In this document: piece after piece, positions 1,215 through 47,289 of the stretch
Layout of the letters: each line of letters begins with the position of its first letter
Numbering within the stretch: position 1 is the stretch's first letter
DNA from: Heptranchias perlo
Lineage: Eukaryota
Reading direction: 5' to 3'
DNA length: 64,000 nucleotides
Assembly (NCBI RefSeq): GCF_035084215.1
Contig: NC_090360.1
Span: 10,230,001 to 10,294,000 of the forward strand
Made by a program: the position numbers and the translations under genes
Notes under the pieces: model-generated
The model's input: only the letters and a program-made list of their open reading frames with translations
The model's database searches: none
Told to the model about the DNA's origin: nothing

Positions 1215-1715
1215 TGTTGGAGTAAAAGTAAGATGGTTACCTGGAACAAAATGGACTCTGTGAAACAAAATGGACTCTGTGAAACAAAATGGACTCTGTG
1301 AAAAGACATTAAAATGTGCTGACTTAGGCAACCTTGAGCTACATCCTGTCATTGTATAAAAACTACGGAACAGACAAAAACCAGACCTCCAGATGGTCAG
1401 CTTAAGATAAAGCGGAACCGAAACAATATGTTCTTGATAACAGTTGTTTTTTAAAGGAATGTGATTGGAGGTCAATTGTTGCTGTCGGGGCCTAATTGGC
1501 TAATGTGTAACTAACCAAGGCTGATAATGTAATAACTGCTAAATGTCTGTACTTGTCAACTCTTTGGAATGTATAAAAGAAGCTCAGTGGCCATTTTAAA
1601 ATTGAGAAGTTGACTGTGAGCACTGCGGAGTGCCAAGCACTTCTCCCAAAGCTTTGTTCAATAAACTGCATGTTGAATCTTTAAGTCTGACTCCGAGTGG
1701 TGATTTCCCACAACA
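1215..1715 (+). mobile_element. 3' LTR of an LTR retrotransposon/endogenous retrovirus
   Basis: Polypurine tract AAAAGGGGGAA (1203-1213) before TGTTG; ends CAACA (1711-1715); TATAAAA at 1572 and AATAAA at 1660; internal ~19-bp tandem repeat (aaacaaaatggactctgtg, about x3) at ~1245-1300. Confidence 0.85.
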
Positions 1716-2386
1716 CCCACCATCAACGTCCTGGGGGTCACCATTGACCAGAAACTTAACTGGACCAGCCATATAAATACTGTGGCTATAAGAGCAGGTC
1801 AGAGGCTGGGTATTCTGCGGCGAGTGACTCACCTCCTGACTCCCAAAAGCCTTTCCACCATCTACAAGGCACAAGTTAGGAGTGTGATAGAATACTCTCC
1901 ACTTGCCTGGATGAGTGCAGCTCCAACAACACTCAAGAAGCTCAACACCATCCAGGACAAAGCAGCCCGTTTGATTGACACCCCATCCACCACCCTGAAC
2001 AGTCACTCCCTTCACCACCGGTGCACTGTGGCTGCAGTGTGTACCATCTACAGGATGCACTGCAGCAACTCGCCAAGGCTTCTTCAACAGCATCTCCAAA
2101 ACCCGTGACCTCTACCATCTAGAAGGACAAGGGCAGTAGGCAGATGGGATCAATACCACCTGCACGTTCCCCTCCAAGTCACACACCATCCCGACTTGGA
2201 AAAGTATTGCCGTTCCTTCATCGTTGCTGGGTCAAAATCCTGGAACTCCCTACCTAACAGCAGAGTGGGAGAACCTTCACCACACGGACTGCAGCGGTTC
2301 AAGAAGGCGACTCATCACCACCTTCTCAAGGGCAATTAGGGATGGGCAATAAATGCTGGCCTTGCCAGCGATGCCCACATCCCATC
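1716..2386 (+). mobile_element. 3' part of a CR1/L2-superfamily LINE (RT C-terminus + 3' tail), interrupted by the LTR element
   Basis: ORF 1782-2108 RAGQRLGILRRVTHLL..YKAQVRSVIEYSPLAW is a non-LTR RT C-terminus; a highly similar copy lies at 20705-21597 on the other strand. Confidence 0.85.
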
Positions 2387-3269: not shown

Positions 3270-3447
3270 CTCTCATGATCACTCCCCTGGCCTCTGCCCA
3301 TTCGCTCCTGCCGCCTGATGTGAGCAGTCCAATCGGAGGCACACCTTCTTCCTCGCTCTCTGCCATTTTCACGATCTTTCTCAACTGGGTGAATAAGTCG
3401 GTTTCGTTCAAACGTCTGAAGTTTATGACAACATCCAAAACGAAGAA
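3270..3447 (-). CDS. CHAT: Choline acetyltransferase internal exon (178 bp); last CHAT exon found in the window
   Basis: [59 protein letters not shown]; cag acceptor, gtcaga donor; phase continuous with the previous exon. Confidence 0.95.
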
Positions 3448-3797: not shown

Positions 3798-3978
3798 CTG
3801 GTTCTTACAAGCCACGATGACGTGCTCTGGTTCGGGCATGATGCTGCTTTTCTGGGCCGCCAGCGTGTCTTTTCGATGACCTGGGAGACGGTAGGACGAG
3901 AACAGCCTGTAATACTGCTCCATACACAGGGCGTGTCCAGCCAGCTGACCACGGGCAAAATCAACAGGTAACGCACGG
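3798..3978 (-). CDS. CHAT: Choline acetyltransferase internal exon (181 bp)
   Basis: [60 protein letters not shown]; cag/gtgag boundaries. Confidence 0.95.
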
Positions 3979-4639: not shown

Positions 4640-4790
4640 GCAAAACTCATGGCATTCTCTCTCACCCCATCATTCTTTTACACCTTAAATCTATGGAACT
4701 CCATACCTCCCTCAGTCATCCCCTCCTCCTACAATCTCCAGGCTTTAAAAACGAAGTCTGGTCACCTAATCGCTGCCTCTTACATTTGTC
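4640..4790 (+). mobile_element. Old LINE 3'-end fragment
   Basis: Translation SFFYTLNLWNSIPPSVIPSSYNLQALK resembles the LWNSLP..FK C-terminus of jockey/CR1-group RTs. Confidence 0.4.
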
Positions 4791-5149
4791 CACCCCCGTC
4801 CATCCCCTCCTGCAGAGAGGACACAGGCAACTTGGCAGCAATTCTTTCAGACCTTGGCCGTGCGATGCATTAAGGCCCTCGGTCTTGGTTTTCCAATACT
4901 AAAAACCTACTCCATGCATTTTATCAATTGTTCTCGTTTAATATCGAATTTTATATATTAACCAATTAAATTAAGATAAGGCATTTTAGACAAGCAATAT
5001 GTTTTCACTGAATAATCTTAGGTTTGTTGGAGAAACTGTGAAAAAAGAACGGCATAATAGCTCATATTAACTTGAGGTATGGAATTCTTGTGTTGAATGC
5101 CATGATCAAAATTATTCAATGTTTGACTCCCCGAATGGCGATAACTTAC

Positions 5150-5203: not shown

Positions 5204-5902
5204 CTGTAAAGGAAAAATAAACTCGTGATGTTGGCGTCACGGTGAGATTTCTCCAGATGTCATCAATGGGAGTTCGGCGCTACGCAAGGAAGAATCTCAA
5301 AGCATAATTTATTATCCAGGAGAATGATATGTGCCTGTGGTTGGGGAAATAATTACAGAGTGCAGGTTCCACTAGATAACACCCATACCTCACAGCCTCA
5401 ACACCGAAAATGATGCCATTGTTCGCACTAAATTAGACTGCTTTGACATAGTTCATTTTATTCTTACAGCTATTAAGTCCACCAATGTATATAGATGAGA
5501 ATGTGAACTCGTGTTACACCAACCTCATATCACTCTTGCATTAAATATACTTAACACTGACAAAACATTTCCACATACTTTGCCCGATATGCAAAGGGTG
5601 TAGCGAAAGATATTCAAAAATAACCTGCCTTTGAAAACAATTTAAATAGGAACATGTAAGAGTATCCGTGATAGAGCCTTGCCCATGTATTGGGGCACGA
5701 TCCTTAAAACTTCACCAAGAAATGGTCCCAAGTTGATATTTTTGGGCAGGGTTCGCTATATCTCAACCTACATTTTCTGACAACACTGCATCTTTGTGTT
5801 GGAAACATCGAATTGCCATTATCACTATGCATGACAGCTTGTGCACGTTACAGTGCATTTCTGTTGTGCTATATGAAAGTTCAGGGTATGATTTAATTGT
5901 AC

Positions 5903-6021
5903 CTGAGTTGATCACCCTCATCCCGGAAGTTCTGGCGAGGGAAGACCATTCCGGGACTGGAGTTTACCGGAAGTGCAACTCGATTACATAAATACATGTC
6001 ATCCAGCCACCATTCGTAAAT
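5903..6021 (-). CDS. CHAT: Choline acetyltransferase internal exon (119 bp)
   Basis: [40 protein letters not shown] carries the carnitine/choline acyltransferase WLxDMYL..LPVNSSP motif; aag acceptor, gtac donor. Confidence 0.95.
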
Positions 6022-6632: not shown

Positions 6633-6824
6633 CCAGTTAACTTTATTTTCTCTTCGCTCCATCAACTGTTGCTGCAAAAACTCTCCAATCTCTGCACGGG
6701 CGCCAAACTTTTCTGCGATGGCTTTGGTGATTTTGTACTGATCCTCTGGGACCAGGTGTTTCATGCAGTTCAGATAGATGTCGAGGGTTTTCTGCAGAGG
6801 GGGCACGGGCAGTTTGGGCAGCAC
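6633..6824 (-). CDS. CHAT: Choline acetyltransferase exon (192 bp)
   Basis: VLPKLPVPPLQKTLDIYLNCMKHLVPEDQY...ENKVNW (LPxLPVPxL signature); tag/gtaaat boundaries. Confidence 0.95.
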
Positions 6825-7586
6825 CTACAGCACAGACAGGGTCCAACCGGTTAAAGAAGAATGAAGGGGGGGGGGCGGTGGGTGTCACATGCAACAGTCA
6901 TTTTTGAATAAGAAGCTATTCAGTGAAATAAAACAGAACGGTGAAAACAAGTGAGTAGTGAAGGCCTCCTTATTCCTTTAAGCTAATTTCTGACATGTCC
7001 TCCAATACTGCACCAATGCATTACAAATCCGACCTCGCATGTCTGCAAATGTTCAGCAGTCTTATGACTTGAGACAGGGGATTGATTGCTTGAACCCGGC
7101 TTTCGTTGTAGCTCATGGAAGATGTCTTACACGTCGAAATTATATTGCCATGCATTTTTAGACAATGCTGCATGCACCATTTCAACCCAAGCCCTATGAG
7201 GGAATGCTTTAGAAATATCCATCACTCATTGTTGCTCCGTAATGCTATTAGGACTCTGACAATGCAATCAGTTCAAAAGTCTGCTCTCTCCATAGTGTAT
7301 TGCTTATTAAATCATCCATTAGAGATTTTATAATGGCCGTGACAATTCTTAAAATAACCATCTTCTACATAGGAAACAAAACTGATTGTTTTACGTATTC
7401 AACCCTTAATATTTGACAAGGTTTGATTAGTTACTGTACCCAGCTTAATTTAGATATGTCACTGCGCTAATATTCGATTATCAAGCTGCACAGTTAAATT
7501 ATAAAACTTGCACACATCAAAGGAAACCAGCACTGCCACTTGCACGCCTAGACAAGAATGTAAAGTGAGTATAAAAGTTGTAGTAC

Positions 7587-7649
7587 ATAGCTGTTCCTGC
7601 GAGCTTTGGGTCGGACTGAGTCCTGGGTGGAGTTATTGAGGACAGGCAT
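7587..7649 (-). CDS. CHAT: Probable first coding segment of CHAT (exon probably 7587-7720 including 5' UTR)
   Basis: ATG with A at -3, then MPVLNNSTQDSVRPKARRNSY (21 aa; resembles the mammalian MPIL.. start and length); phase 0 joins VLPKLP; good acceptor tcttcaatccag at 7721; the donor gtacta is weak. Confidence 0.65.
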
Positions 7650-8070
7650 AGTTCTGCCACGATCGCGCACAGCCGATAGAAGAAAGACTCGCACAACCGG
7701 TTCACGGGATCAAAGAACTCCTGGATTGAAGATAGAATGCAAACGGCCTCGTTTAGCTGCGTATTAATTGATTAAGGACTCGATCACAGTGCTATATAAA
7801 AACTCAACAACCTATATACTCTGTCTGTCTGTCCGCCTATCCATTTTTTATATCTGTCTGGTTAACTTTCCTGCATTTAACCTCCTTCATTATTACTGAC
7901 TTGTACATGAAGGCAAGTTAGAATATTCTGGTCATCACTGATCAGCTCTTGAACGTAAGTTGAAAGAGTGGCAGAATAAAATTTACGAAAGAGATACAAA
8001 GCGAGACTATCCTTTGACTAGCACCAAATCCACTCCGGCAAACTAACATACATAAAACAAGATCACATAC

Positions 8071-8080: not shown

Positions 8081-8356
8081 CTATAGAAAGAAATTAAGAG
8101 AAAGAACGAGAATGAAAATTTGATACTACTTCAAATAAAACCGTTTCTATAGGAGAAATGCACAGGAGAATTGGGATCAGTCCCCTCATTTTGGGTAACC
8201 CACAAATCAGGCGTGCATAGGGGATCTAAACCTATTCCTTTATAATCTTGAAGTATTCTGCAATTTACTAATTAAAGGAGCTAACACATTGACAACAATT
8301 CATTTTCAAAATAAGTTTTACACGCCAATCGATAACAAGCTGGTGTTCATACTTAC

Positions 8357-8534
8357 CGAGCTGCCCTCAGCTTCATGAGTTCACATGAAACGAGGGGAAT
8401 GGTGGCTGGATAGAAACTTCCTTTCCAAGCCCATCGTTGAACTAGATTTTGGTTAGATGGAAATCTCTCTCAGTCTGCTCGCAGTTTTGGCTCATTGTCA
8501 CTTCTTCACCCTTGTAACTGGCGTGCCGTGGAAC
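8357..8534 (-). other. Candidate upstream/alternative CHAT exon
   Basis: Strong donor CG|gtaagt at 8356; acceptor ctctccacacatcctgttcag at 8535; contains ATG 8376 (MKLRAAR) and short uORFs. Confidence 0.4.
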
Positions 8535-9825
8535 CTGAACAGGATGTGTGGAGAGCTCTGCTATACTTTCTCTTGATACGACAAACCCCTCCCCCTTTCC
8601 CTATTCGCCGAGCCCGAAGAACGACAACATCATACGCAGCACAATACCCATTGACTTTACATTGTAAACTCAAGCGGCCAGAATTCGCGGGGGAGGGCGT
8701 CTTTGTATGATGTATCTAACGTTTGTATCTAACGTGTGTAATTTTTAGGGGGGTGTGTTTTTTTCATATCTTTTCAACAGTGATCGTTCAGAAGATAATC
8801 TAGACGGAATCTAACGTCAGTAAACGGCCCATTGCTTAACATCCTATTTCTCAGAAAAAAAATAGAGCAGTGTCGAGAGTAAAGTTCACATCGCATTGAG
8901 CATCTTCCGCTTAACATGTAATGACTTGAACTGAGTGATGGTGTGTTCTGCTCGACCAACACATACTTGTTCCGCAAGTTTTCTAAAGGGATCTTCCCAT
9001 TAGATATGTTTATTGTTTGTCGAATGGAAATCTGCAGCACATTAAAGAGGAAGAAGAGGGCTGTACAGTGATAGGTCAAAAATTACGTGCATATTTTATT
9101 GGAATAACATATAACGAGTAAAATTACATAATAACCTTCTTGTTGTTGCCTTAAATCGACAATTTTGTAAAAGTGGTTTGATTTTTCCCCGTGAAAAGTT
9201 TTCTAGAGGATCTGAAATTGGAAGGATTGGAGATTACACAATCGCACATTCTCACGCGTAGTATAAAGTACAGGAGATTTGAAAATCAAATGTAGTGTCT
9301 TGGAAAACTCAAATTTGAAGGCGTTAGTCTGTGCAGCACACAATGGAACGCATGGATAAGTATACTGTCTATCCCTGGGACGTTGTTGGACGATTATTTA
9401 AATGTGTGTTATAAATAATTTCGCGATTAAGAATTATTGATGAGCTGTTCTAGGTTTTAATTAAAGGTTCCATTGTTTCTCGCCGTAAGATGAAGGATCG
9501 CACTGGGAAAGCTGCTCATGACCCAAGGGGCGGCGAGCACTGATTAATTCCAACATTCGTTATACAGAATATGGAGCACAGTCACCAAATGCACAGTATT
9601 AAAATATTTGGCCACACTTATAAACCTTCTGCTTCATAATTGACATAATTTATCGATAGCGTCTATCTCGATTAATTATAATCTCCAGTCAAAAATAGCA
9701 CAGGTAAACTATTTTCGATTATTGCAAGTTTTATTAATTTTTAGTTATACTTTTTAATATTTTTATTTATTTGCCAAGACTTACCCTCAAAGATGGAAAC
9801 AAACAATCTCGTTATGCTAAGATTT

Positions 9826-10021
9826 TATTTTGTGATGAATCCTGATTGTGATTTTATAATGAATATTGATTGTATGTATGATTTTTAACGAATTTCCTTT
9901 ATACGATTTTCTGATGCATTCTGATTGTATGATTTTGTGATGAATTCTGATTATATGATTGTGTGATGCATTTTGATTATATGATTTTGTGATGAGTTCT
10001 GATTACGCGATTTTGCGATGA
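9826..10021. repeat. Degenerate ~26-bp tandem repeat (tgatgaattctgattatatgattttg), about 7 units
   Basis: Repeated units directly visible. Confidence 0.8.
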
Positions 10022-10477
10022 CCAATCAATGCCTTTGTCCGAAGTCTGCTGGTGAAGTAAACGCGGTATCGGTGAAATGTGCACGAATGCGAAGTTACCT
10101 GCGAATATATGCAGATTCTGGGCAGAGGTGAGGTACCAACGGGTTAGTTTGGCGTTTGAAGAGAGGCTTCTTAGCCCTTTAAGTACGTGTCGCAGTAGAA
10201 CGTCGCGACTTCAGACACGTTATTTTTTTACAATGATTTTCTATATTTTCAAAGTGATAGCAGCCTTCAGCTGATATACCTCACGCATTGTACTTTTCTG
10301 CCCATCCAGAAAACCACTGTTTTGTTTTGCTGTTGTAGTATAAAAGTCAGCGGTGTGCATAATCAGCGGTGTACATAATCAACAGACCGTGGAGATTGTT
10401 GGCTATTAAAAGCCAACGTGTAGCATAAACTGAAACTTGTAAAGATGTATTTATTTTGCACGTTGATCATTGCTTGT

Positions 10478-10688
10478 CAAATGTAAGGAATCTTACAACA
10501 CCAGGTTATAGTCCAACTGTTTTATTTGAAAATCACAAGCTTTCGGAGGCTTTCTCCTTCGCTCACCTGACGAAGGAGAAAGCCTCCGAAAGCTTGTGAT
10601 TTTCAAATAAAACAGTTGGACTATAACCTGGTGTTGTAAGATTCCTTACATTTGTCAACCCCAGTCCATCACCGGCATCTCCACATCA
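10478..10688 (+). mobile_element. Fold-back Penelope-like non-autonomous element, family A copy 1
   Basis: Perfect 84-bp inverted arms (10478-10561 / 10571-10654); 3' tail tcaaccccagtccatcaccggcatctccacatca; flanking duplication atcattgcttgt (10466-10477 / 10685-10696). Confidence 0.8.
10563..10599 (+). ncRNA. Minimal type I hammerhead ribozyme motif
   Basis: TCAC-CTGACGA-A-GGAG(aaagc)CTCC-GAAA-GC-T-T-GTGA: CUGANGA and GAAA boxes, stem II, stem I TCAC/GTGA, palindromic AGCT in place of stem III. Confidence 0.65.
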
Positions 10689-11990
10689 TTGCTTGTAATC
10701 ATTATGATTCCAATATATGGACCAAAAAGAACCATCGGGTACTCTCTAACCCTTCAGTGAAAGATTGAGATGAACACATTTTCTCACTTTATAACTATAT
10801 ACAGAACATTCTGATGAATGAGTATTAGAAGTGAGAACCATTTTCAAGGTGTATACAACAGTATTTTTCACCTTATTTCCGCGAACAGCAATGAAAAGTT
10901 AAGAGTTCTTATACCCCAGATCCAAGTAAAATACCCACAGTCTTCTTGTGGTTCAGAGGGGAAGTAGTCACAACGTGTTGTTTCGTGTAAGAATATTTGT
11001 TGAATTAAGATCAATTTTGTTCAAACTGGGACTGCGAGGAAGACGAGAATTTATAGAAAATAGATACGTGGAGGCATGATTTTGTGTGCTCAAAAAGTAA
11101 CATTATGTATGTAGACAAGCAATCTCAGAATTAGTTATTCAAATATGTTGTATCTGAAATAAGTACTTTAACCATATCATTCCCTATATATTTATTCACT
11201 AAGTTGCCAGAAACTGACTTTAGGGTCGATAAGATTTCATAACTCTAATTTGTACGTATTGTACATGAAAGGTGAAAATGCAACCATTTTAAATCAATCC
11301 TTATTACAATGCGTAACTTGGCTAATCTGACGCCTTAAACCTGATATTGTAGCCCAAACCTGAATGTATGAATGTATGAATGGTATGAAAGACCGCTGAT
11401 ACCGATTTATTCAAACTCAGTCATCATCTCTTGATCCAGACTTTAATCTGACATATTGCATTTATAATATAGCAGCACACTTAGGTCAAAATAGTCCTAT
11501 ACAGAGATTCATTCCCAGAGAAAAATACACAATCGATTCTGTTTCAAGTCAAAACATGGGGGCCAATCTAAGGAGCATACAGTATATACAATATTTTTAT
11601 TCCCGCCAGATCCCTGAATAATTAAAATATTTTTTGAATACATATAGCTTTTTTTACACAGATGTACAAACTAAAACTCGCACACACGGATTCAATTCGA
11701 GAAAACTTTGCACTGGACGTCATTTAAATAGATTCGTGATAAATGCAGTTTATTATGAATGTTGGATTTTGGTTGAATGCATGTCGTTACAATTCCATCT
11801 TGATCACATTCTCCATCCACCTAAGACTCATGAAATAAGCAATTACATCAATTATACAAAAGTAATTCACGACAATGATGACATCAAATCTGGGTTATAT
11901 TAGACATCTAGTACATCACGGGCGGCAAAGTTATGTTGCATTTCATTCATTTATGTCCTTGGAAGATTTGGCTGTTGGACGGTTTAGAGT

Positions 11991-13586
11991 CTAAATGTAA
12001 TCACTACCCGATGAATCGTCTTCGGACAGAATCTGTCCAGTTTCTTTTCTCCTGTCGGTGTTGTCCAGGACCCCGGACATGGAATAGTTACCTGCCGAGC
12101 TGCCATGGGCTTTCTTACCCGCCATGCGTTCTTCCATTTTGATGGTGTCGTATAGCCCTTTGGGTCCCTCCTCCAAAAGGATATTTCTCTCAGAAAGCGA
12201 GGGTTTCATTTGGCACACGTTTCTGAGCAACAAGAGGGCAGGGGCATACAGGACGTTGGCACAGCCCATTCCAAGATTGAGCTGCACAAAGCCCAAAGTG
12301 TGGACAATTTGGCCGGCCACGATGGGTCCCAGGGCATAAGCAACAGAATAGGAGATGTCAGCTATAGCATATACACTACCATATACAGATACATGACGAA
12401 CGTCTACCAGGAAGGCAAGGGTAGGCAACAGGGCAGTGTCCACTAGGGCTATCCCAAAACAGAGGGCACACAACGGGATGATAAGTTCTTCAAAATTCCT
12501 GCAAGCTGGGACTGTACACGAGCTAGCACCTATAATAACCATGCCTAATGCCCCGTAGAACCACTGGTAATTGGGATATTTCGCAGCTAGTTTTACAGTG
12601 ATGTATACGCCTAGGATGTGCGGGAAAAATGCCGGCAACCATGTTAGTCCCATTTGCCATTCAGTGGCATTCATTTTCTTTTTCATCCAGGATGATATGG
12701 TAGGTTCTAGGAAAGCTAGTGGGATATTACAAGTGGTAAGAGCCCCGGCTACAACAGCAATATAAGGGTCGATCATAAGTTTATAGATGGGGGTGCCTTG
12801 CGGCATATTTTCACGTGTTCTACTAGTAAAAGGTTTAATGACAGTTAGCAACAAAATACCGTCCATCAGGGAGACAAAGGATAACACTAGGAAGGGGACA
12901 CTCTTGCCCGCGAACTCGTATAATATACCACCAAAGGGGGGCGCCACCAAACTTCCAAAGGAGATGAAAGCCAAGGCGATGCCGAGGGCTGTGCTCCTCT
13001 CCGACTCTTCCGTGTATTTGTCCGCGATCATGGCAATTCCGGAGGTATCTGCAAACGCCGACCCCAACCCTTGGAGGCTTCTGGCTACGAATAGCATGGC
13101 ATAGCTTTCGCCGAAAGCAAAGGTGAGGGTGGAAAAGAACATAATGGTGAGCCCTATGAATAGAGGAATGTCGTACCCCACCCGGTCAATGAAAGTACCA
13201 GTCAATGGGTTAGCAAGCAGCTGAAGGATGGCTTTAGACGCAAAGAGCACCCCGATTTGCAAGTCTTCATTTTCATTGGGGTTCCTGTACAATATGGGTC
13301 TCTGCGTGGAGTTGACAAACGAACCATTGGTTCCGTTGGAAGATGACGTGACATACACCAGTTTATAAGTTCTTATAGTTTCAAGGTAGTTTGGTATGAT
13401 CGGTACAATCACCATATACAGCATGTTGTCCAACAAGAGTGCAATGCATACAATGACCAGCATAATTCTTCGCTGCCGCCGCGGTTCATGCATAGCACCA
13501 CTTATCTGTTTAGTTCTTTCGCCAACCACGTCTGAAATTTTCACCACGGCTGACTTCGCCAGTCCGATCGTCATTTCTGCAGCCAT
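11991..13586 (-). CDS. SLC18A3: Vesicular acetylcholine transporter (VAChT), intronless, 531 aa
   Basis: MFS multi-TM protein with [49 protein letters not shown] and the C-terminal SERNILLEE dileucine motif; closely resembles Torpedo VAChT; upstream of CHAT coding exons on the same strand. Confidence 0.98.
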
Positions 13587-16129
13587 GATTGTCCACTATT
13601 GATCTGAACAAACTTTCTCTCAGCTCAACAGAACGGATTTGGTCTTCTGTCACTCTTGGCTCTCGCAGGCGGATACTGTAACTATTATCTCGACATTGAT
13701 TCCCGAAAACTTTCTGGCTTTACTTCCGATCAGTGAAACCGACAGACACTGATTTCACTAAATCTGTTCTGTGATCTTGGTGCATAGTCCCTGGCCCACG
13801 AGAAGGAGCTCACAGCAACAAGGGGACAGATGTGGCGGTGGAGAGATTTCACTCGTAAACACGCTGAACCAAGAACTCTTCAAGCCTGCTTTGCTGTAAT
13901 TCCTCGTTCAGTCCAGAAAAAAAACACAATTAAGAGATTCTAGTGACTAGCGAGCGGTCACATTACCAGATTCTAGGAGATTTGAGCTTCTGCAGTTCAT
14001 ACTTTTTCCCACCTGTAACATTCAATTCGTCTTCCGCTTGATTCCGGGACACTGGGTATGCTGCCCATTTACACCCATTGAGTCGCATGCTCTCCGACTC
14101 CTCGGTTTTTCGAAAGCTTATGACGCGCTCTTGCTCTGCCCGGTCTAGTTACATCTGAATACGCCCATTATGTTAATTTGACACGTGACCGGGTCTTCTC
14201 CAATTACAGCCAAGACGGGGATTCCTGTCTTCACGAAAGGCGGAGCTCCGAGCGAGCAGTCCAATGTTGGAACAAAGGCGTTAACGGTGCGTCTCCAACA
14301 TTTGCTCAACACATTTTAGGAGAACTCGTCCTATTGCTCTGTTGCTTTGATGTTCACGTAGGACTGGAGACAGGGTGACTTGACAACTTGCAAAATATAC
14401 GATGCGCACAAACTATTTAGCAACTACGAGCATATTGGGACAGAAACTGAATATTTTTAACTGGAATATAGAAATAGACAGTCCGCGTAGTTTATGGACT
14501 GGGTTAATTTCCACAGTCTCTCCAATTGTGTCCCAGTGTTGGTGCCTGGTACTGAATGTTCAGCCTTACACTGTTGCCGCTTGATAATAAAGAGTGCAGT
14601 AAATACCCCACTATTTGTAACAGCGGATTCTTCTGCTGTACGCTCTCTCCACTTTCACCGTTTTTTCGGCAGCGTCACAGTAACTGCAGCCCAGTATTTT
14701 TCAGTGGCGTTAAAATAACATTCTCTCCTCCCACACCCCCATAATTGAAATTACTAATTCCCAATCGCTCTCATCTTTTCCAGTCCAACTGCCTATTTCT
14801 CAGCCAACCAATTGCATTTGTTGGTTGCTCTTATCGAGATTAATCTGTATGTCAGATAAATGTGCATTAGGTTTCTGTCTTTGTGTACTGCAATATCTCG
14901 TTGTCTATCTCTTGTGTGTTCCACTTATATAATGGAACTAAAACATGACAGCGGGACACCATTGAGTCAAAGGACAACATGAGTTGCTGAGTGGGTGAAA
15001 AGGCCTTAACAGAATATTGCATATTCACAGCAACTGGAGGGGCAGCAGTCTAGGTGTGACTCAGACCTTACTAGAATCTTCCTTGAAGTTGCTTCCTCAT
15101 TTAAAACAAAAACAATTTATCTTATCAGTTTTGTCCGGGCTGTGGACTGTGCAAGGGTAATGATTCAGTAATGTTATCCTTTTGAAATTGTTACCCATGT
15201 TCATCAATTAGCAGGCAGCGCTGAAAACAGGCTTCTCGCATGAGTGCTCTCGAACTGATCATGTTTGGCATCCGATTCCAAGGGCATGATCTACTCCGAA
15301 TTAAGCTGCAAACTTGAGTCACTTTTCTATCCCTCGTCAGGTCCATTCACTGTAGATTACCTACTGCCGCAGTGAGAGCTATTTTCAAACGCACGATTGT
15401 TCTCTTATCAATCACTGTTTTGGTAGAAGGGCGCGATAGAGGAACATGAATAACAATTGCTAACCTTTTCTGTTCACTCGGGGTTATAGCTGGAACCCAA
15501 AATGTGTTCCAACGTTTGAAACTCGAGGTTTAACTGCAGTCGGTTTTTGTGTTATAATAACCCGAATTAAAAGGGAAATGGCGAAAGTTTTCACTCCTTT
15601 TGTTGAGTTCTCGACCGTGACCTCAGAGGACACGGACTTTAATTCCCGGTTGAGGTCACTCACTAAAGTTAATTGTCCACTTGGACGGTCAAGAGAGAAA
15701 ATTTTAGTGCAAGGATATAACATTTTTAGGTAATAAATTACACTAGAATCACGACGCTAAGCTTGTCGATGCTGATGCTTTATTATTCCTTCAGCTGGTA
15801 TTTTGGGAGAAAGTGAAACCGATGAGAAAAATATAAATATATAGAATCGCTGAGGTCATACCTCAAAACTCCTTCAAGCGGCAGACTGAAATGACAAGCA
15901 TTCTGGCGCAAAATACGTTGCATCGGCGAGAAACCCTGTCACTGGAGAAAGTGATCAAAGCAAACTGAATCTGACAGATACGCCAAACAACTGGACGGCA
16001 CATAAATGCTGGAAAATGCACTATCTTGGTTTTATTTTAGATATTTCTAATGATTGGCAATCAAATCACAGTACACTACCCACACTGATTAACAGTACGA
16101 ATGGAAAGTCATTCTGGTTAGGAAACTAT

Positions 16130-20704: not shown

Positions 20705-21597
20705 TGTTCACGGGATGTGGGCGTCGCTGGCGAGGCCAGCATTTATTGCCCATCCCTAATTGCCCTCGAGAAGGTGGTGGTGAGCCGCCGCCTTGAACCG
20801 CTGCAGTCCGTGTGGTGAAGGTTCTCCCACAGTGCTGTTAGGAAGGGAGTTCCAGGATTTTGACCCAGCGACAATGAAGGAACGGCGATATATTTCCAAG
20901 TCGGGATGGTGTGTGACTTGGAGGGGAACGTGCAGGTGGTGTTGTTCCCATGTGCCTGCTGCTCTTGTCCTTCTAGGTGGTAGAGGTCGCGGGTTTGGGA
21001 GGTGCTGTCGAAGAAGCCTTGGCGAGTTGCTGCAGTGCATCCTGTGGATGGTACGCACTGCAGCCACAGTGCCCCGGTGGTGAAGGGAGTGAATGTTTGT
21101 TTAGGGAGGTGGATGGGGTGCCAATCAAGTGGGCTGCTTTATCCTGGATGGTGTTGAGCTTCTTGAGTGTTGTTGGAGCTGCATTCATCCAAGCAAGTGG
21201 AGAGTATTCCATCACACTCCTGACTTGTGCCTTGTAGATGGTGGAAAGGCTTTGGGGAGTCAGGAGGTGAGTCACTTGCCATAGAATAACCCAGCCTCTG
21301 ACCTGCTCTTGTAGCCACAGTATTTATATGGCTGGTCCAGTTAAGTTTCTGGTCAATGGTGACCCCCAGGATGTTGATGGTGGGGGATTCGGCGATGGTA
21401 ATGCCGTTGAATGTCAAGGGGAGGTGGTTAGACTCTCTCTTGTTGGAGATGGTCATTGCCTGGCACTTATCTGGCGCGAATGTTACTTGCCACTTATGAG
21501 CCCAAGCCTGGATGTTGTCCAGGTCTTGCTGCATGCGGGCTCGGACTGCTTCATTATTTGAGGGGTTGCGAATGGAACTGAACACTGTGCAGTCATC
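20705..21597 (-). mobile_element. CR1/L2-superfamily LINE, 5'-truncated
   Basis: ORFs 21139-21585 (MQQDLDNIQAWAHKWQVTF..ILGVTIDQKLNW) and 20973-21275; same family as 1716-2386. Confidence 0.88.
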
Positions 21598-22541
21598 TGA
21601 GACCAGTCATTGGACGTTTAATGGCATGAATATATTTTTCCTTTCTTCCCACACTTTTTTCACCTACCTCTTTAGCTTCCTTGCCCTGTTCCCTGATCAA
21701 AAAGGAACATTTTTTTTGACTGGCTCGTAAATCTCTTCTGTGGTATTCATGAATCACTCTTTGAGAAGTGAGATTTTGCTGTAGAGAATTTCTATATTAC
21801 CATGGTGATAATGCTTCAGAAACAGTTTCTTAATACACTTTAATATCTAATGTAATTGGAAAAGAGGCTGATCTTTAACAGATTTATTCTACAGATTACC
21901 TCTATAAATGGGAAATAATTGAGGTACCTGTCCAATCCCTGGGTGATCTTTCCAATGTTAGGAATTTTGGCTGCCATTTGATGAATGTCCAAGTTCCAAA
22001 GAACACCTTATTAATGGTGGTTTGTGAGCCAGTTGCCTCCACCTGAGTGAGAAGGCACTTATTTTCCTAACTCAATATGAGGAACTTCCTCATCATCAAA
22101 ATATGATTAGCCAAGAAGCCTAGAATTCAGGATATAGACTTTTCTCTTGAGTAAAGACCTTATTGTGGCTTAGGGTGGCTGTTGAAGATGGGAAGATGCA
22201 CCCCTGTATTGCCAGTTCCTCATATTTGTTCCACACTGGCTTGCTGGCAGCACTGGTAAATATGGTACATCAGGTTTGTGTACCAACATGCTTAAAGGCT
22301 CATGTGTTTGTCTTATCTTTGCATCCCTTGGGTTAGATTGCTGGTAGATTTTGAGTTGATATAATGTTTTTGTGTTTAGTGATAAGGCAATACTTAGTTA
22401 CCACAGGCAAATGAATGGCAGTCACATGAAGGTTACCTTGACTAGTGAGTGAATATATATTTGATAGATTTGGATAGTTATATGAATAAGTGTTGACCTG
22501 TAAAATAAGCTATGACAGGTCCAAAGACCAAGCGAATTACA

Positions 22542-22767
22542 GAAATAAAAACAGAAAATGCTGGAAATACTCCAAGTCAGACAGCATCTGTGGAGAAAGA
22601 AACAGAATTAATATTTCAGGTCGATGACCCTTCATCAGTTCTGACGAAAGGTCATCGACCTGAAATGTTAACTCTCTTTCTCCACAGATGGTGTCTGACT
22701 TGCTGAGTATTTCCACCATTTTCTGTTTTTATTTCAAATTTCCAGCAGCCACAGTATTTTGCTTTTG
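22542..22767 (+). mobile_element. Fold-back Penelope-like non-autonomous element, family B, with central hammerhead motif
   Basis: Imperfect ~95-bp inverted arms (22542-22638 / 22641-22735) plus 3' tail; centre AGTT-CTGACGA-A-AGGTC(atc)GACCT-GAAA-TG-T-T-AACT. Confidence 0.75.
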
Positions 22768-31518: not shown

Positions 31519-32956
31519 CATTGCCGCTCTGTCAAACGCTGGACAGCTCTGAGGCTTGAGTGCCGCCACGTGGCAAAAGGCGGTAATTCAATTGAAAGCG
31601 TATTCAGTGGCACCAACAGAACCACTCTACGTTATTTCCATTGAAATAACAGTTGTTAATTGAAATTAAAATAATTCTTTCTTTTCAGACTTAGCGTCTC
31701 AATTTTGCACAATTACCAAATCAACCAACTCTAATTGTCCTGTTCAAGTACAGAATTCGCTTTTTGAATCTTTTGAATTTTAGTCAAAGAACCAATGCCC
31801 ACAACACGGGACACTGAAGAGTAAAAGGAAGCAGTGGTTGGGTGATGCCCATCCTGGATTTTAAAAGGCTGCAGTTGAAGGAAGAAGGGTAGACTGAGTG
31901 GAGATGAGGAATTGCACAGTTTATAGGTCCTGGGAAAGAATGAGTTACTGCTGGAAGAGAGTTTTCATTTCAACACAACAAAAACGCACGAAGGACAGGG
32001 TGTGTGTGGTGTATTTGGAGTTGATTAGGAATAAGGAAGGAAAATTAAGAGAACCACAAACTATAATCATGTTGGTGCAGTCGAAAAATGCAAGAAAATT
32101 TGCACTAAAGAAGCAGAGTTTGGAGACTTGGCATGAAAGGAGAGTCAGTTATAATACATCAATCTTTTTCTTGCATTCTGTCAGAGTGCGAAATAATATT
32201 TCAAGTTTTGAACAGACTTGTGAAATAAGCAAGAATACTAATTTTGAGTCTGGATCCTGCAGATTTAAGGTGTGGGCACAGTATTGTATCATTTTTTAAG
32301 TTGCAAAACCAGAGAGCCTTCTAGTAACATATGAAACAAAATAGTGCATGTTAATAAAATTCCCTTGTGATACATTGGTAATATTTCCCTTGAAATACAG
32401 CGATAAAGATGGCACCAATGAGATTAATAGTCTCAGGAGTGTCATCGCTTATAGTACTTAGATACTGGAACTCCTATGTCAGCAAAGAATCCTGTTTGTA
32501 ATTTCTAACCTTTAAAAATGACAAAAGTATATTTTATATAAAATAATATCCAGGGAGCTGGTCTGATACTCCTGCTTAGTCTGGGTGTTCAGATAGCATG
32601 TAGAAACTATAAAATAGTTTCTGATATATTCTAAATTCCTTCTTTAATTTATAGCTTGTAACTCATTCTGTGGCTTCTATTTTATATATAATTTATTATA
32701 AAATTCAATCTTCTGAGTTAAAATATATAGTAATCGAAGAAGGCGATCAATAAATAGCAAATTTGTGTGAAGGATAATTTGCTTTTTTCCTTGGCGCATA
32801 TGTACAATGTCTTTACTTTTTTTTAGCATTTTAAGGGATTAGTTAAATCTTTTTCCCATTTACATTTATTGTCTCTCTCTTAGAGTTCCACATGTCATTT
32901 AGACATCAGGCAGTGATGCAATCTGGTCTCAGGTTCCTACCTGACCTGTTCTTGTC

Positions 32957-33187
32957 TTGTAAACAATTTTACAACACCAAGTTATAGTCCAGCAATTTTA
33001 TTTTAAATTCACAAGCTTTCGGAGGCTTCCTCCTTCGTCAGGTGAACGATGTGAACATCGTTCACCTGACGAAGGAGGAAGCCTCCGAAAGCTTGTGAAT
33101 TTAAAATAAAATTGCTGGACTATAACTTGGTGTTGTAAAATTGTTTACAATTGTCAACCCCAGTCCATCACCGGCATCTCCACATCA
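32957..33187 (+). mobile_element. Fold-back Penelope-like non-autonomous element, family A copy 2
   Basis: Perfect 96-bp arms (32957-33052 / 33055-33150); same 3' tail as copy 1; 13-bp flanking duplication tgttcttgtcttg (32947-32959 / 33188-33200). Confidence 0.82.
33061..33099 (+). ncRNA. Minimal hammerhead ribozyme motif (mirror copy on minus strand at 33008-33046)
   Basis: TTCAC-CTGACGA-A-GGAG(gaagc)CTCC-GAAA-GC-T-T-GTGAA. Confidence 0.65.
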
Positions 33188-35619
33188 TGTTCTTGTCTTG
33201 GCCAATATGAGGTGTGTGAGAAAGTGGCTTGTGGTGATCCTCCCTCTATTGTTCACCCCTGTCAGGAGGAAGGCTTCTCTTCTGTTCCTTCCATTGATAC
33301 ATTCTGAAGAACAGGAACTTGTCCTGTGGGGAAAATTGGGAATATAAAACCATTTCTTATCCCTCCATGACACAGTGTGTTAGACCATAATTGGATAACT
33401 TTACCATTGCACCTTAGTGCTAATGATTTATCTTGGAAGAATTCTAGCAAAGGAATTTTGTTCAGTTCCATTATGAACTATTGGAAACAGAAAACTTGCA
33501 GTATTTACAAGTTGAGCTCAATTTTTTAAAAAAACATGAAAACAGCACCTCTTTTGGGTATGTTAAACTTTCAAGGTGATTGTAATCATTTAATTATTTT
33601 GATGTTGGCCTGTTTTTATGTGTGTGTATTAGCAGCTTTTTCCTATCACATTATAAAATAATTCCGTGAGGACAGCCAATAACCTAAGGAGTCAGTCACT
33701 TCGTTCTCACCCAATAGTCCAAGAAATGAAATGCCAGATACTCAAACACATTTACTGCTGTTTTATAAATTCTATTGCTCTTTGTTCTTGACACTAAATG
33801 CAGGGTTGACTGGGGAGTAACGGAATTGCATTAGTAAGTTAGGACCATGAAAAAGACATTGTCCAGTTCACACATCAATTTGCAGCATGGGGAATAGCTG
33901 TCCTTAGAGGAGAAACATCCATGGGGACACAGTTACATAAAGAAGGTCAGTGGGCTGCAAAAGAAAGGAACATGGTGGGACTAAAAAGTGTGTGTTGGTT
34001 TGTATTTTTCCCTGCCGTATGCAATGTAGAAGCAGGGATGATCTGTTGAGCTTTGGTCAATAAAATTACTAAAGGAATCAGATGTGAAGTTTCCCTCAGT
34101 ACTACACCAAATCAAGATGGTCAAAAATGAATAAATACATTTTCATCACTTAAACCCCTAGGGATATAATTCTATCACTTTTGCTCTGGTGATAACTGTA
34201 TTTAGTGACATGGTATGTGGTGGTGTTTCATTTAATTGCCATTGGTTATTAAAGCTGTTCTGTTTTCCTCCATATTATCCATTATGGTCACTGCTGATTT
34301 TACTACTCCACTGTCCAGAGGTTAGCTTATATTTTTGCATGTGTTCCATCCTGGAAGTGTTGATAGCAGCACACAGATGATGGGATACAGCAGACACTAA
34401 AGTTATTGTTCAATTTGTCCTCATTTTCAGCTCCTCATTGCAATCTACCTCTGCAAACTCCTTCAATCCTACATCCCACCATGTACCCTTCACTTTTCCA
34501 GTTCCGTTCTATTGTGTGTCTTCCCCCTTCCTCTGCTCCATTGTTGGTGACAGAATATTCACCCATTATGTCTGAATTCTCTTCTTACATTTCTCCACCT
34601 TTCTATCTCTTTCCCCATCTTCAAATGCCTTCCCCTTTGGTCATCTCCTGTACCTTCTCTCCTTGCTTGGTGCCCTTTGATCCCCTTGTAAAGTGCCCAT
34701 GGATGTTTTGTTCTGTGAAAGATTTTGTATGTATGTAACAAAAATAAAATTAAGATATTCAACCATGAAAGGACTCTCGTCTTACATTGGATAGGAGTCA
34801 AGAACAGCATCTGATTGTATTTTATAAATTAAAGTCTGGTATAAATTAAAGTTTTAGCAGTGCTGCATGTGTCCATCAGTCCTCACATCCCCACACAATA
34901 TGTAGTGTTGGTGACATGGATGTGTGGACAAATTTGAATTTAGCTCTGCACATTGCAACACATTTACGCCGATTGCTCCATCCAGTGCAGTGCATTTTTT
35001 ATGCTAATGATGAATAGTGGTGGCCTCAGGCCTACGTCCTTATAGAGGAACATGTGCTTTAGTGAGCCTCATGCTAGCATTTAAAGCCTGTGTTTGATAT
35101 ACTTAACAATTACATTTGCTCAAACATATTTGAAGTGAAAATAAGTTGATAAATAGCTTATTGCTGGATGTTACTGCTTCATGTGGCTACATCCATTGAT
35201 GGTCTTATGCCTATACTTCAATGACATTTTGACCAACAATAAGCTCCTTAATAACTAAGCTTCAGAGTCAAAATGTGACTGTGTGGAATCATTATTTGCA
35301 AAAATGAAAAGCATAGAATTGATAGATTCATTCACTTAGTAATATTTCTGTTTGTAGGAATGTTGGCCAACCAAGGAGGCTCTTGAAAAGGTGTCGTGAA
35401 ATGTGTGAATCTTACAGGGTTATGAAATCCCGTAGGAAGGAGTCAGGTGCAGATTAGAATTGATGAAAGTGATGCTGTGGAATGGTCATATTATCAACTG
35501 AAGAAGAGAAAGGGCATTGGATTTTTTTTCTCCAAAATCCATTCGATCATTGGCAAAACTCAACAAAATGGAACTCTGATCATTGAAGCTATGTTCCTAG
35601 TTATTCATTAGCGTGGTGA

Positions 35620-43640: not shown

Positions 43641-45438
43641 ATGGCCACGAGGATAGCAGGACCGGCTCGAGTGAGGGCTCCACGTTTCTCCGATGATGCA
43701 CTGGAGGCCCTGGTGGAAGGGGTGGACGAAAGGAGGGCCAGCATGTACCCGCAGGGTGGCATGAAACCCTCCAGACTGCAGCTCCGCAGGCTGTGGCACA
43801 AGAAATTAATGCCAGGAGAATTTTACCACGCACGTGGATGCAGTGCCGATAGAAGTTCAATGATCTGACGCGAGTGGTCAAGGTAAGCGAATGCAAGTGC
43901 ACATCCTACCCACTGCTCCACGCATCACACTCCCCATCACCCACCCACCAACAAACGCTGCCCATCCATCTGCAATGCTGCACTCGGCATGCTGCATCTC
44001 ATCCGCACACTTGCAGGCTACACAACCACCACTCATAGGTCACACAAATTGGCAGCTATTCGACCACGACAGGCACATCACCCACACACCTTGCAAGATA
44101 CTCACTGACACACCGTCCTCTGTCTTGCAGGAGAAGGTAGCGCGTAACAGCCGGCAGCAGGAGAGACGTGAGGGTGGACGGGGACGCTTACACATCCTCA
44201 CCCCCCCCCCCAAGAGGAGACTGTGCTTCAGATCATTGGGCGGGCCATCGCTGCAGCCGTGACAACATGCCGCGCTGGAGGTCCCGATGAAGGGGGTCTC
44301 TGCATATCTAATGCTCCTTCTCCTTTTCCCAGATCTCCCTCCTCCCGTAATCTTTTCTGACTCACGTGCTGCAGATGCTGTCAGCACGCACGTCTTACCT
44401 GCTCCTCTCCCCACTCCACAGCTCAACCTGTTTCCCTTTGTCATTGCAGATATCCAAGAACACGTGGCAGCACCGAGGAGCAGGAGGAGGGGGACACTGA
44501 AGCCGAACCGTCACTCGATCTGACACTTGCTTCCACCAGCTCAGAGACTGACACTGGGTGTCCTTTAGAGGCTAGGTTAGAGGAGGGATCTGCACGTGGT
44601 GAGACACCGAGCACAAGTGCGCAGGAGCCGGGGTGGGGGGGGGAACGAATACCACAGGTGCCAGCTCACCAGAGGGTGAGGTCGCTCACTAGTTCTGCTG
44701 CAGAGGAGTCAGATGAGGACTTCAATGGGCCGGGTTACAGAAGACGGCTGATGGGCCTACACCACCAAATGCTTGGGGCACTGGAAAGCCTGCCAGAAAA
44801 CCTGCGCACAATGAGAAGGGGCATGGAGGAGTCCAGCTTCAACTTGGCACAGGGCTTTGTGCAGAGCTTGGAGCCCATCCATTTCAACATGGGTGGTCAC
44901 CTCCATCAGCGCACCTGTGGAACCCACCAGGATGCAGCGTCTGATGACTGATGTCACAGCTTCCACTGCAGCACAAACATTTGCCATCCAAGGTCTGACT
45001 GCTGCCTTGGAAGCTCAGACCACTGTGGAAAGGAGCTTCCAGGATATCACAGCACTCCAGCAATCCATTCTCCAGCTGATCACCAGGATTGCTGAGGTGC
45101 CGCCCTGGGAGAGTGGCAGTGGTGCCATGGCAGTTGGACCTGCTGTCCTCTCTCAGGACGATAGCCTTCCTGCTCCCACCCCTACCACTCCACCAGTGCC
45201 CCTGTTGTTGCCTACTGGCCAGTCAGGCCAGACTGCTGCAGCCTATGCTGAGATGGTGCAGTCTGAAGCTGAGCTGTCCCGGCCCAGAGCTGCTCGAGGT
45301 CGTCCTCCAAGGCCATCTGCATGCTCCTCCATTGAAGGCCAGCAACCTCCCACCACCCATGCTCCAGCCACTGGGGAAGCACCTCGTGGGAGCACTAAGA
45401 TAGGTAAAGGCACTAAGGAAATGCACAAGGGTGAATAG
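43641..45438 (+). pseudogene. Harbinger Myb/SANT-like DNA-binding gene (spliced, frameshifted)
   Basis: RAPRFSDDALEALVEGV..W..RTWMQC.KKFNDL-like motif; donor aag|gtaagc at 43882; acceptors ttgcag at 44130 and 44449; AATAAA near 45473. Confidence 0.75.
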
Positions 45439-45639
45439 TTCTGTTATGTTTGCATAATTTCATTTATTCATTAATAAATGCGACTTTGATTTTGCATTTG
45501 GTGGTGGTTTTTATTTATGCAATGATCGGAGAGGGAAACCAATGTGCAATCAGATGGAGGGTGATTTGATTGCCTTGTGGGAGCGGAAAGGTGGGGAGTG
45601 TAGGACTGTTGGTGAGTTGGGGAATGTAATTCACATTAT

Positions 45640-46775
45640 TGATAGCGGGTACGGATCAGGCGAGCATGCAGAGCCCTTGGAGACGAGGCGTGTGGTCCAG
45701 TTGCACCCTTGCTTCTTCCTCCACTTTCTCTTCCACCTCCGCCACCTCTGGCTCAGGGTCTTCTCCAATCATTGGCAGCAAAGGCTGGTCCGTCATGATG
45801 GTGAGGTTGTGCAGCAGACCACCACGAATCTGCCCACCTGCTCAGGGGAGTACAGCAGGACTCCTCCAGACCAGACCAGGCAGTAGAAGCATTGTTTGAG
45901 GAGGCCTATGATGTGCTCCACGATGTTGCATGTGGTAGCATGGCTCTCATTTAAAGGCCTGCTGTGCACGTGTACGTGGGTTGCTGACCAGTGTCATGAG
46001 CCACTGGGTGAGGGGATAGCCCTTGTCGTCCAGTAGCCAGCCTTTGAGTCAGGTGAAAGACAGCTGGCACGTTGGACTGCCGCATGACGAAGGTGTCGTG
46101 ACTGCTTCCAGGGTAGCGGGCATTGACCTCCATGATTCGATGCATGTGGTCGCACACCAGCTGCATGTTGAGGGAGTGGAAGCCCTTTCGGTTGACAAAG
46201 ACGGCTGAGTTGATATGCGGGACACGCAGGGCAATTTGCGTGCTGTCAATGGAACCGTGCACCATGGGGAAGCCAGCAATGCGAGAGAACCCCTGGGCTC
46301 GCTTGTTCTGCTCCTCTCTATGGCGAGGGAAGGTGATGAGCCTGCTCCTCATCTGGTACAGTGCGTCTGTGACCTCCCTTATGTAGCAGTGCACTGCATA
46401 CTGCGAGATGTTGCACATGTCGCCAGCAGAGGCCTGAAATGCTCCTGAGCCGTAGAAATTCAGCACCACTGTGACCTTCACAGCCACAGGCAGTGCTGTC
46501 TCTGCCCTGCTCGGAGGCTGCAGTTGTGGCCGCACCAGTCGACAGATCTCGGTCACAGCTTCCTTGGTGAAACTCGGGCGTCGGATGCAATCCTCCTCCG
46601 TCATGTTGAGATAAGAGAATTGGTCCTGAAAAGCCCTCGTTGGGTAGGGCCTCCTGCTCAGTGCCCTGTGCCTCCTCGTCCTCTGTCTCCTCGCAGCTTG
46701 ACCTGCTATACGTGGCCTCTCTGCATGCTCCCAGTCATGCTCAATGCCCAGCGGGAGCTCTAGCAGACCGCCCAT
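45640..46775 (-). pseudogene. Harbinger transposase (HARBI1-like DDE nuclease), frameshifted
   Basis: GFPMVHGSIDSTQI, NRKGFHSLNMQLVCD, YPGSSHD, then after a frameshift near 46050 GWLLDDKGYP..FNESH..VEHIIGLLKQCF. Confidence 0.88.
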
Positions 46776-47289
46776 GGTTGCCAGGAATGTTGTTCAACCA
46801 CGGTTGTAACTTTCCGAACTGTAAGGCAGTACCTGCCAAACCGCTCTCAAATGTACTCTAGGGACTTTCAGTAAGAATAGGGAGCTTCAAAAAACACTTC
46901 CTATTCCACTTGCAGCCAGAAGCAATAATCCAGCAACTAACCTGCAACACCTGCATGGCCCCTTTAAATAGCGCTGGTGGCGGGGGGGGGGGGGTCCTTC
47001 AGGCGCTGTAAGACACGTTCAGATGGTCGGGGTTAAGACTGCATGGAGTTGAGCGGTAAGGTCCAAAATTGTGTCTGTCACTTTAAATCAGCGTTGCACA
47101 CTGCATGCACTTTCTTCCTACTTTACATGCGCATGTGCTAACTCCTATAACAAGATGGCATCGGGCGCACATCATGCTGGAAATGTGCGTGCGCATCCAA
47201 GACGCCATCTTGGATGGTCAGAGGCCATGTCGCGCCGAAAAACGGGCATTACATGGTCCAATTTAGTGCCCATTATTCCAACTATGGCC

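What the first reader, a model, noticed from the sequence alone, without database searches (positions are those of the whole stretch)
10466..10696. Perfect 84-bp hairpin with a hammerhead core inside the cholinergic locus
Seen: mismatch-free 84-bp arms, 9-nt loop, unique 3' tail, 8-12 bp TSD. The plus strand has a full minimal hammerhead (10563-10599). The minus strand, sense for CHAT/VAChT, lacks the CTGA box because the left arm is truncated. Established: Penelope-like elements carry minimal hammerheads with a palindromic stem III thought to act as dimers, and often insert with an inverted 5' segment. Inference: a young non-autonomous insertion that would place a long dsRNA (ADAR/Dicer substrate) and an AATAAA in CHAT pre-mRNA or an extended VAChT 3' UTR without cleaving it.
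Basis: partly seen in the sequence, partly recalled or inferred. Interest (0 to 1): 0.7.

Follow-up and report, generated by a model that had tools for sequence, protein, structure and literature searches.

The report
Shark Penelope retrotransposon hairpin stub
This hairpin is a young, very short insertion of a Penelope-type jumping gene that has thousands of copies in this shark genome; its layout is already known, it likely arose when the element's end was copied onto both cut DNA strands at once, and nothing here shows that it affects the neighbouring acetylcholine genes.

Summary
In detail: 84-bp perfect arms, a 9-nt loop and a plus-strand minimal hammerhead. The tail is 35 nt and the target-site duplication (TSD) 12 bp. 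The right arm plus tail is the terminal repeat (pLTR) of an autonomous, Neptune-type Penelope-like element: in full copies it ends at the start codon of an 891-aa RT/GIY-YIG ORF. The hammerhead core has 5,922 exact genomic copies. An inverted arm, a one-sided tail and a TSD are the published Penelope layout, so this is a new member of a known kind, not a separate mobile unit: junctions vary, and this one also occurs mirror-wise. Family statistics favour priming on both cut strands: one tail per pair in 25 of 25, the tailless arm longer in 11 of 80, and arms from different subfamilies in 2 of 46. Arm ends pile up 7.8-fold at the hammerhead's 5' edge, ~30 nt below a TATA-like box, not at the cut site (1 of 101). 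An effect on CHAT/VAChT is unsupported: no RNA contig bridges the insertion. The scan has noted such stubs before (164 notes, at least 16 genomes).

The parts
10466..10477 (.). Left target-site duplication, 12 bp (ATCATTGCTTGT)
   Evidence: family mode 12-13 nt in 47 of 88 insertions
10478..10561 (-). Inverted, tailless pLTR arm; its element-sense 5' end lies inside the hammerhead core, so it lacks CTGA and stem I 5' strand
   Evidence: tailless arms end 0-7 nt beyond the anchor
10559..10561 (.). 3-nt microhomology (TCG) at which the two arms are joined, given the subfamily template ending ACACTCGCT|CACC
   Evidence: sequence; template seen in L066 and in 5 long arms; same seam at 8 genomic places, 3 of them mirror-wise
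10559..10689 (+). Direct, tail-bearing pLTR arm: from the inferred RNA 5' end through the hammerhead to the AT of the ORF start codon
   Evidence: the same unit precedes ATG of the ORF and recurs after the ORF's 3' UTR
10563..10599 (+). Minimal type I hammerhead motif; predicted cut after 10595; activity untested
   Evidence: features as in PMC4209133
10655..10689 (+). 35-nt Penelope 'tail', present on one arm only; last 5 nt shared with the TSD
   Evidence: exactly one tailed arm in 25 of 25 adjacent inverted pairs
10685..10696 (.). Right target-site duplication
10521..10526 (-). AATAAA on the CHAT/VAChT strand (mirror of 10606-10611 on plus); part of the pLTR
11991..13595 (-). Context: VAChT-like single-exon ORF; RNA contigs extend 3' to 11436-11561
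   Evidence: the gene name is from my recall of the sequence and locus, Pfam gives MFS_1
8356..8524 (-). Context: most 5' CHAT exon seen in spliced contigs (then 7585-7719, 6633-6822, 5901-6021, 3798-3978, 3270-3447)
   Evidence: Carn_acyltransf hits

Best explanation
This is a young, 5'-truncated head-to-head insertion of the terminal repeat of an autonomous Penelope-like retrotransposon, likely made when the element's enzyme cut both target strands 12 bp apart and started one reverse transcript on each strand. Shown: both arms are the pLTR end of an RT/GIY-YIG element, flanked by a TSD, with the tail on one arm. Inferred steps: (1) the RNA starts about 30 nt below a TATA-like box, just before hammerhead stem I. 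(2) One cut strand anneals to ...CACAUCAU at the ORF start and primes the tailed arm; the other primes about 35 nt upstream and gives the tailless arm. (3) When priming is in the 5' pLTR, both cDNAs run off the RNA 5' end after about 95-130 nt, like strong-stop DNA. (4) The two like-sense cDNA ends are joined by microhomology, which trims one arm (here the left, removing CTGA). The hammerhead is copied uncut. The copy has no ORF or TATA box and is most likely an inert passenger between VAChT and CHAT.
For: Identity: the unit precedes the ORF ATG in most of 19 loci shown and recurs after the ORF. L230 has an open 891-aa ORF with RVT_1 (E 2e-9), a CX4CxxC linker and a GIY-YIG/CCHH region (sequence); the nearest named protein is from a shark, 95% identical. 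Exact pattern counts are 5,922 and 20,624. Twin priming: exactly one tailed arm in 25 of 25 adjacent inverted pairs. The tailless arm is longer by more than 30 nt in 11 of 80 resolved insertions and the tailed arm in 16 of 80. The two arms carry different loop II subfamily types in 2 of 46 insertions, each under a 14-nt TSD (L037, L167). This seam occurs mirror-wise in 3 of 8 places. In vitro, a lizard Poseidon protein cuts and extends both strands, starts at two sites flanking the tail and uses uncut RNA (PMC11167929). RNA 5' end: 38 of 101 arms end within -10..+11 nt of the hammerhead start, 7.8 times the flanking rate (binomial p 4e-15), and only 1 of 101 ends at the cut site. A TATA-like box lies 31-43 nt upstream in 8 arms of the 12 loci checked.
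Against: Arms are usually near-identical and of similar length: same loop II type in 44 of 46 (about 23 expected by chance), same second marker in 53 of 61, and lengths within 30 nt in 53 of 80, including long pairs such as 697/697 and 1057/1044. Fold-back predicts this as well, so twin priming needs coupled synthesis from one source. Two extra tests of the RNA-start idea were inconclusive. Samples are the first 100 exact matches of two patterns on one contig, biased to young subfamilies. The in vitro work is on another clade. No raw reads were available.
Confidence: 0.6

Rival explanations
1. Same Penelope origin, but the second arm is made by self-priming: one cDNA folds back near its 3' end and copies itself, and the endonuclease trims the copy about 35 nt short, which leaves the tail.
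For: Arms match in subfamily type in 44 of 46 and in length in 53 of 80. Self-priming was proposed for head-to-head Penelope junctions in PMC3846280 (passages), and EN-mediated resolution for the tail in PMC8557442.
Against: A copy of a tailless cDNA cannot gain a tail, yet the tailless arm is the longer one in 11 of 80 (up to 1223 vs 147 nt). 2 of 46 pairs have arms of different subfamilies. An antisense-template version was not tested.
Confidence: 0.25
2. The hairpin is a non-autonomous mini-element that is transcribed and retrotransposed as a unit.
For: L001-L007 share this seam and are 99-100% identical over the element.
Against: Only 8 exact seam matches genome-wide against 5,922 cores. 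Three of the 8 (same places as L016, L026, L030) are mirror forms with the tail on the trimmed arm, which one master cannot give. Left ends differ by up to 4 nt and abut each TSD without donor flank. The centres of most other copies differ. Arm lengths run continuously up to kilobases.
Confidence: 0.07
3. The insertion has a regulatory effect at the cholinergic locus (dsRNA/ADAR substrate or premature poly(A) site in a CHAT or VAChT transcript).
For: It sits between VAChT and CHAT coding exons; a transcript across it would fold into an 84-bp duplex (about -160 kcal/mol). In mammals an upstream (R-type) CHAT exon makes this interval intronic (recalled, not from a call).
Against: It is one of thousands of like insertions (about 3,300 short palindromes by extrapolating 16 pairs per 100 matches to 20,624), and a second one lies in the same window. 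Its perfect arms and TSD mean it is young. AATAAA-type hexamers are common here (14 in 4 kb).
Confidence: 0.05

Closest known systems
Inverted-pLTR insertions of endonuclease-positive Penelope-like elements (Pen2a_Av, PMC3846280; general layout, PMC8557442; D. virilis Penelope, PMC2377424)
   Same: 5'-truncated inverted pLTR, 30-40-nt tail on one arm, TSD, short overlap at the junction, TATA-like box upstream of an initiator-like TCACT motif.
   Different: Here both arms are cut down to the last ~90-130 nt with no ORF. The tail stops at the start codon instead of extending into the ORF. The TSD is 12-13 nt against 8-10. Such stubs are the commonest form sampled (51 of 84).
Neptune/Nematis clades of PLEs
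   Same: [quoted passage not shown]
   Different: No RT tree was built, so Neptune versus Nematis is not settled.
Poseidon from Anolis (PAc), PMC11167929
   Same: Hammerhead in the pLTR, two start sites flanking the tail, uncut RNA as template.
   Different: Different clade; in PAc the ORF starts inside the hammerhead, here about 125 nt downstream of its 5' edge.
Minimal hammerheads of metazoan PLEs (PMC4209133)
   Same: CUGANGA, extra base between 9 and 10.1, G10.1-C11.1, palindromic 15.2-16.2; that paper also saw opposite-strand pairs 100-700 bp apart.
   Different: Stem II is 4 bp rather than 7-8; no shark example in the parts read.
Non-LTR retrozymes (bioRxiv 10.64898/2026.07.22.740005)
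   Same: ORF-less, pLTR-derived, hammerhead-bearing.
   Different: Retrozymes are head-to-tail tandem arrays; this is a single head-to-head pair.

Membership tests
EN+ Penelope-like element (parent family) | Single ORF with RT domain | tested here: met
   L230 891-aa open ORF, RVT_1 E 2e-9; 2 of 15 loci with a start have an uninterrupted ORF
EN+ Penelope-like element (parent family) | C-terminal GIY-YIG endonuclease with CCHH | tested here: met
   Motif read directly (VVY..C...C....YIG..H..H). The local Pfam scan gave no GIY-YIG hit at E<=0.1; some homologues carry PF01541 precomputed
EN+ Penelope-like element (parent family) | pLTR repeated on both sides of the ORF | tested here: met
   L232, L233, L238, L241, L242 show the core before and after the ORF
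EN+ Penelope-like element insertion | Inverted 5'-truncated copy, 30-40-nt tail at one end, TSD | tested here: met
   35-nt tail, 12-bp TSD; 25 of 25 pairs one-tailed; TSD found in 78 of 88
Neptune/Nematis clades | CX2-5CxxC linker motif | tested here: met
   CHGNLCKTC in L230
Neptune/Nematis clades | Placement in the RT phylogeny | not tested
   No reference set with clade labels was at hand
Minimal hammerhead ribozyme | Core and stems conserved across copies | tested here: met
   Of 320 arms: CTGANGA 254, GAAA 303, extra A 318, stem II pairs 311-319; loop II and N7 vary. Arms were picked at >=27 of 35 identity, which favours conservation; no two-sided compensatory change was common
Minimal hammerhead ribozyme | Self-cleavage | not testable with these tools
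   Predicted stem probability is 0 within the whole hairpin and 0.07 (stem II) in arm-only RNA
Non-LTR retrozyme | Head-to-tail tandem hammerhead units | tested here: not met
   Single inverted pair
Non-autonomous element moving as a unit (MITE/SINE-like) | Fixed internal seam and ends shared by many copies | tested here: not met
   8 exact seams, 3 mirror-wise; variable centres
miRNA precursor | Rfam family match at gathering score | tested here: not met
   Best 40.9 bits against a cut-off of 62; generic hairpin matches

The most novel reading that the evidence does not exclude
These thousands of stubs are a genomic record of the unresolved Penelope integration step: a dimeric enzyme primes both cut strands at the two tail-flanking sites, sometimes on two different RNAs, and when it primes in the 5' pLTR both cDNAs run off the RNA 5' end as paired strong-stop products. 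That would explain the inverted arm, the one-sided tail and the TSD in one step.
Probability: 0.45. Interest if true: 0.6.

Novelty: new member of a known kind. Interest (0 to 1): 0.3.

Why it matters
The insertion itself is ordinary. Its family matters because the origin of Penelope inverted/tailed structures is called undefined in PMC8557442, and self-priming was the proposal in PMC3846280. A young, high-copy family with intact ORFs allows twin priming and fold-back to be told apart by counting and by a marked-template assay. The family also seeds a shark genome with thousands of near-perfect ~90-bp hairpins, a possible bulk source of dsRNA (untested).

Tried and rejected
Rfam found no hammerhead family and only sub-threshold miRNA-type hairpin hits. 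No run on record as RNA was listed; all 8 runs are guessed-RNA contigs. In them there was no cover at 8571-10343, apart from one short organism B contig (X6) at 9189-9329, and none at 10906-11372. VAChT contigs stop at 11436-11561 in both studies, near ATTAAA 11442 and AATAAA 11406. No DNA run was laid, so this is at most a weak hint that VAChT mRNA ends about 750 nt before the insertion. Organism B contigs gave no cover on the element; this is not counted as evidence. A-to-I editing could not be assessed, because contigs from thousands of copies pile on the repeat. Test that arm ends track subfamily TATA distance: inconclusive (p 0.54, and some long arms were misclassed). Test for a cap-derived extra G: inconclusive (G 16 of 52, T 24). 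Hammerhead cleavage as the source of arm ends: 1 of 101. The 100-199 bin is an alignment artefact at a CT microsatellite and was not used. Stem II indices were wrong and were redone. There is no genome-wide count of short palindromes; the figure of about 3,300 is an extrapolation. Searches in print listed no paper on twin priming or strong-stop stubs in PLEs, or on shark PLE hairpins; subscription papers and Repbase were not searched, and no supplements were read. The sequence look-up in earlier findings was blank.

Full report
Observation. The arms are perfect over 84 bp (10478-10561 and 10571-10654) around CTCACCTGA. ATCATTGCTTGT is repeated at 10466-10477 and 10685-10696. The plus strand holds a minimal hammerhead: stem I TCAC/GTGA, CUGACGA, an extra A, stem II GGAG/CUCC, GAAA, palindromic AGCU, and a predicted cut after 10595. 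No minus-strand core was found at this place. The tail is 35 nt, and its last five bases are shared with the right TSD. Rfam gave only sub-threshold hairpin hits.

It is a repeat. The window lies on a 3.25-Gb genome. All 40 scored candidates of 152 matched the element, and 30 were fetched. Each has its own flanks and a tail; centres vary, but seven share this one. The 35-nt core has 5,922 exact matches, a 32-nt stretch nearer the 3' end 20,624, and a 25-nt stretch upstream of the core 5,861; reversed-pattern controls gave 0.

Parent element. In longer copies the unit follows an ORF stop and about 260 nt of 3' UTR. In copies holding the ORF's 5' end, the tail runs straight into the start codon (...CACATC-ATG). 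Five of 15 loci with a start show the core on both sides of the ORF, and two have uninterrupted ORFs of 891 and 902 aa (one of 16 loci had no start match). L230 has DKG, an RT (RVT_1, E 2e-9), a CX4CxxC linker and a GIY-YIG/CCHH region read by eye; Pfam did not report the nuclease. By the criteria in PMC8557442 (passages) this is Neptune- or Nematis-type; no tree was built. The nearest named proteins are from sharks (95% Heptranchias perlo, 85% Scyliorhinus torazame), then turtles at about 43-45%.

How the hairpin arises. I sampled the first 100 matches on contig C1 for each of two patterns; this favours young subfamilies. Of 88 insertions with a tailed and an inverted arm, 78 had a TSD, 47 of them 12-13 nt (one mismatch allowed; microhomology inflates lengths). 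Four were tailed on both arms, had no TSD, and were dropped from later counts. Among 101 anchored arms, all 25 adjacent inverted pairs within 4 kb had the tail on exactly one arm. Of 84 insertions, 51 were short. Of the 80 whose arms could be resolved, the tailed arm was longer in 16, the tailless in 11, and 53 were within 30 nt. Arms shared loop II type in 44 of 46 pairs (about 23 expected) and a second marker in 53 of 61 (about 18 expected); L037 and L167 had arms of different loop II types, each under a 14-nt TSD. The exact seam of this copy occurs at 8 places; three are the places of L016, L026 and L030, where the tail is on the trimmed arm. One master hairpin cannot give both forms, so the seam recurs through a 3-nt microhomology. 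A fold-back from one sense-derived cDNA cannot give a long tailless arm with a short tailed one, nor mixed arms. Priming on both cut strands can. It also agrees with the in vitro behaviour of a lizard Poseidon protein, which cuts and extends both strands, starts at two sites flanking the tail and prefers uncut RNA (PMC11167929, main text read). Against it, the strong matching of sequence and length between arms fits fold-back equally well and requires coupled synthesis. Self-priming was the proposal in PMC3846280 (passages).

Why so short. 38 of 101 arms end within -10..+11 nt of the hammerhead start, 7.8 times the rate in the flanking zones (p 4e-15); one ends at the predicted cut. A TATA-like box lies 31-43 nt upstream in 8 arms of the 12 loci checked. 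PMC3846280 describes a similar TATA/TCACT pair, whereas D. virilis Penelope has a TATA-less internal promoter (PMC2377424, passages). I infer that the RNA starts here and that priming in the 5' pLTR yields run-off cDNAs. Two further tests were inconclusive. Stalling or microhomology-rich joining at the ribozyme remains possible.

Ribozyme. Among 320 arms, the core and stems are kept while loop II and N7 vary (selection favours conservation). The features match the minimal hammerheads of PMC4209133 (results and discussion read), which were inactive as monomers and weak as dimers. Within the whole hairpin the predicted probability of the hammerhead stems is zero, so even a plus-strand transcript of this copy is unlikely to cleave.

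Locus. The VAChT-like ORF ends at 11991 and CHAT exons lie below 8524, all on the minus strand. Spliced contigs cover CHAT exons from 8356-8524 downward, and VAChT contigs reach 11436-11561. No listed contig bridges flank and element (contigs only, guessed RNA, tables cut). A regulatory effect is thus neither shown nor excluded, and the prior is low for one young copy among thousands.

Comparison and verdict. The layout is published (PMC8557442, PMC3846280, PMC2377424; passages). It is not a retrozyme, which is tandem (bioRxiv 10.64898/2026.07.22.740005, part 1 of 5 and passages). Seven paper searches listed no account of twin priming or run-off stubs in PLEs. Earlier notes of this scan report the same kind of stub in 164 findings from at least 16 genomes; my reading was recorded before I saw them, and they are not independent support. 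One note from this genome stresses arms starting at the cut site, which was rare in my sample. Verdict: new member of a known kind, interest 0.3; Penelope origin about 0.97, twin-priming mechanism about 0.6.

Noticed in passing
window 32947-33200: A second palindromic insertion of another subfamily: 95-bp perfect arms, 4-nt loop, full hammerhead cores on both strands, 13-bp TSD.
   Followed up: partly
window 4779-4807: 29-nt match (90%) to the arm/tail junction; perhaps a decayed fragment.
   Followed up: no
window 9822-10011: Degenerate 26-bp tandem repeat between the insertion and CHAT.
   Followed up: no
window 22638-22641 (both strands), 33304, 42567, 39721, 38998, 18250, 15340: Other loose CTGANGA...GAAA regex hits; the pair near 22640 is on opposite strands and may be another repeat family.
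   Followed up: no
window 44361-46793: GC-rich ORFs, one resembling a Harbinger/PIF-type nuclease with a partner ORF (resemblance recalled, not tested).
   Followed up: no
window 1596-2111, 21139-21606, 57892-58371: ORF fragments that look like CR1/L2-type LINE pieces (recalled, not tested).
   Followed up: no
L230:529-3204 and L231:469-3177: Two copies with uninterrupted ~890-900-aa ORFs, which suggests the family was active recently.
   Followed up: partly
L099, L222, L032, L065: Long inverted pairs with almost equal arm lengths (697/697, 1057/1044, 793/783, 670/685), implying coupled synthesis of the two arms.
   Followed up: partly
L193: Palindrome centred on the hammerhead's own AAGCTT, the self-complementary stem III stretch next to the predicted cut.
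   Followed up: no
protein P0017: A shark epn2 isoform annotated with a 94%-identical piece of this element's protein, suggesting exonisation or mis-annotation.
   Followed up: no
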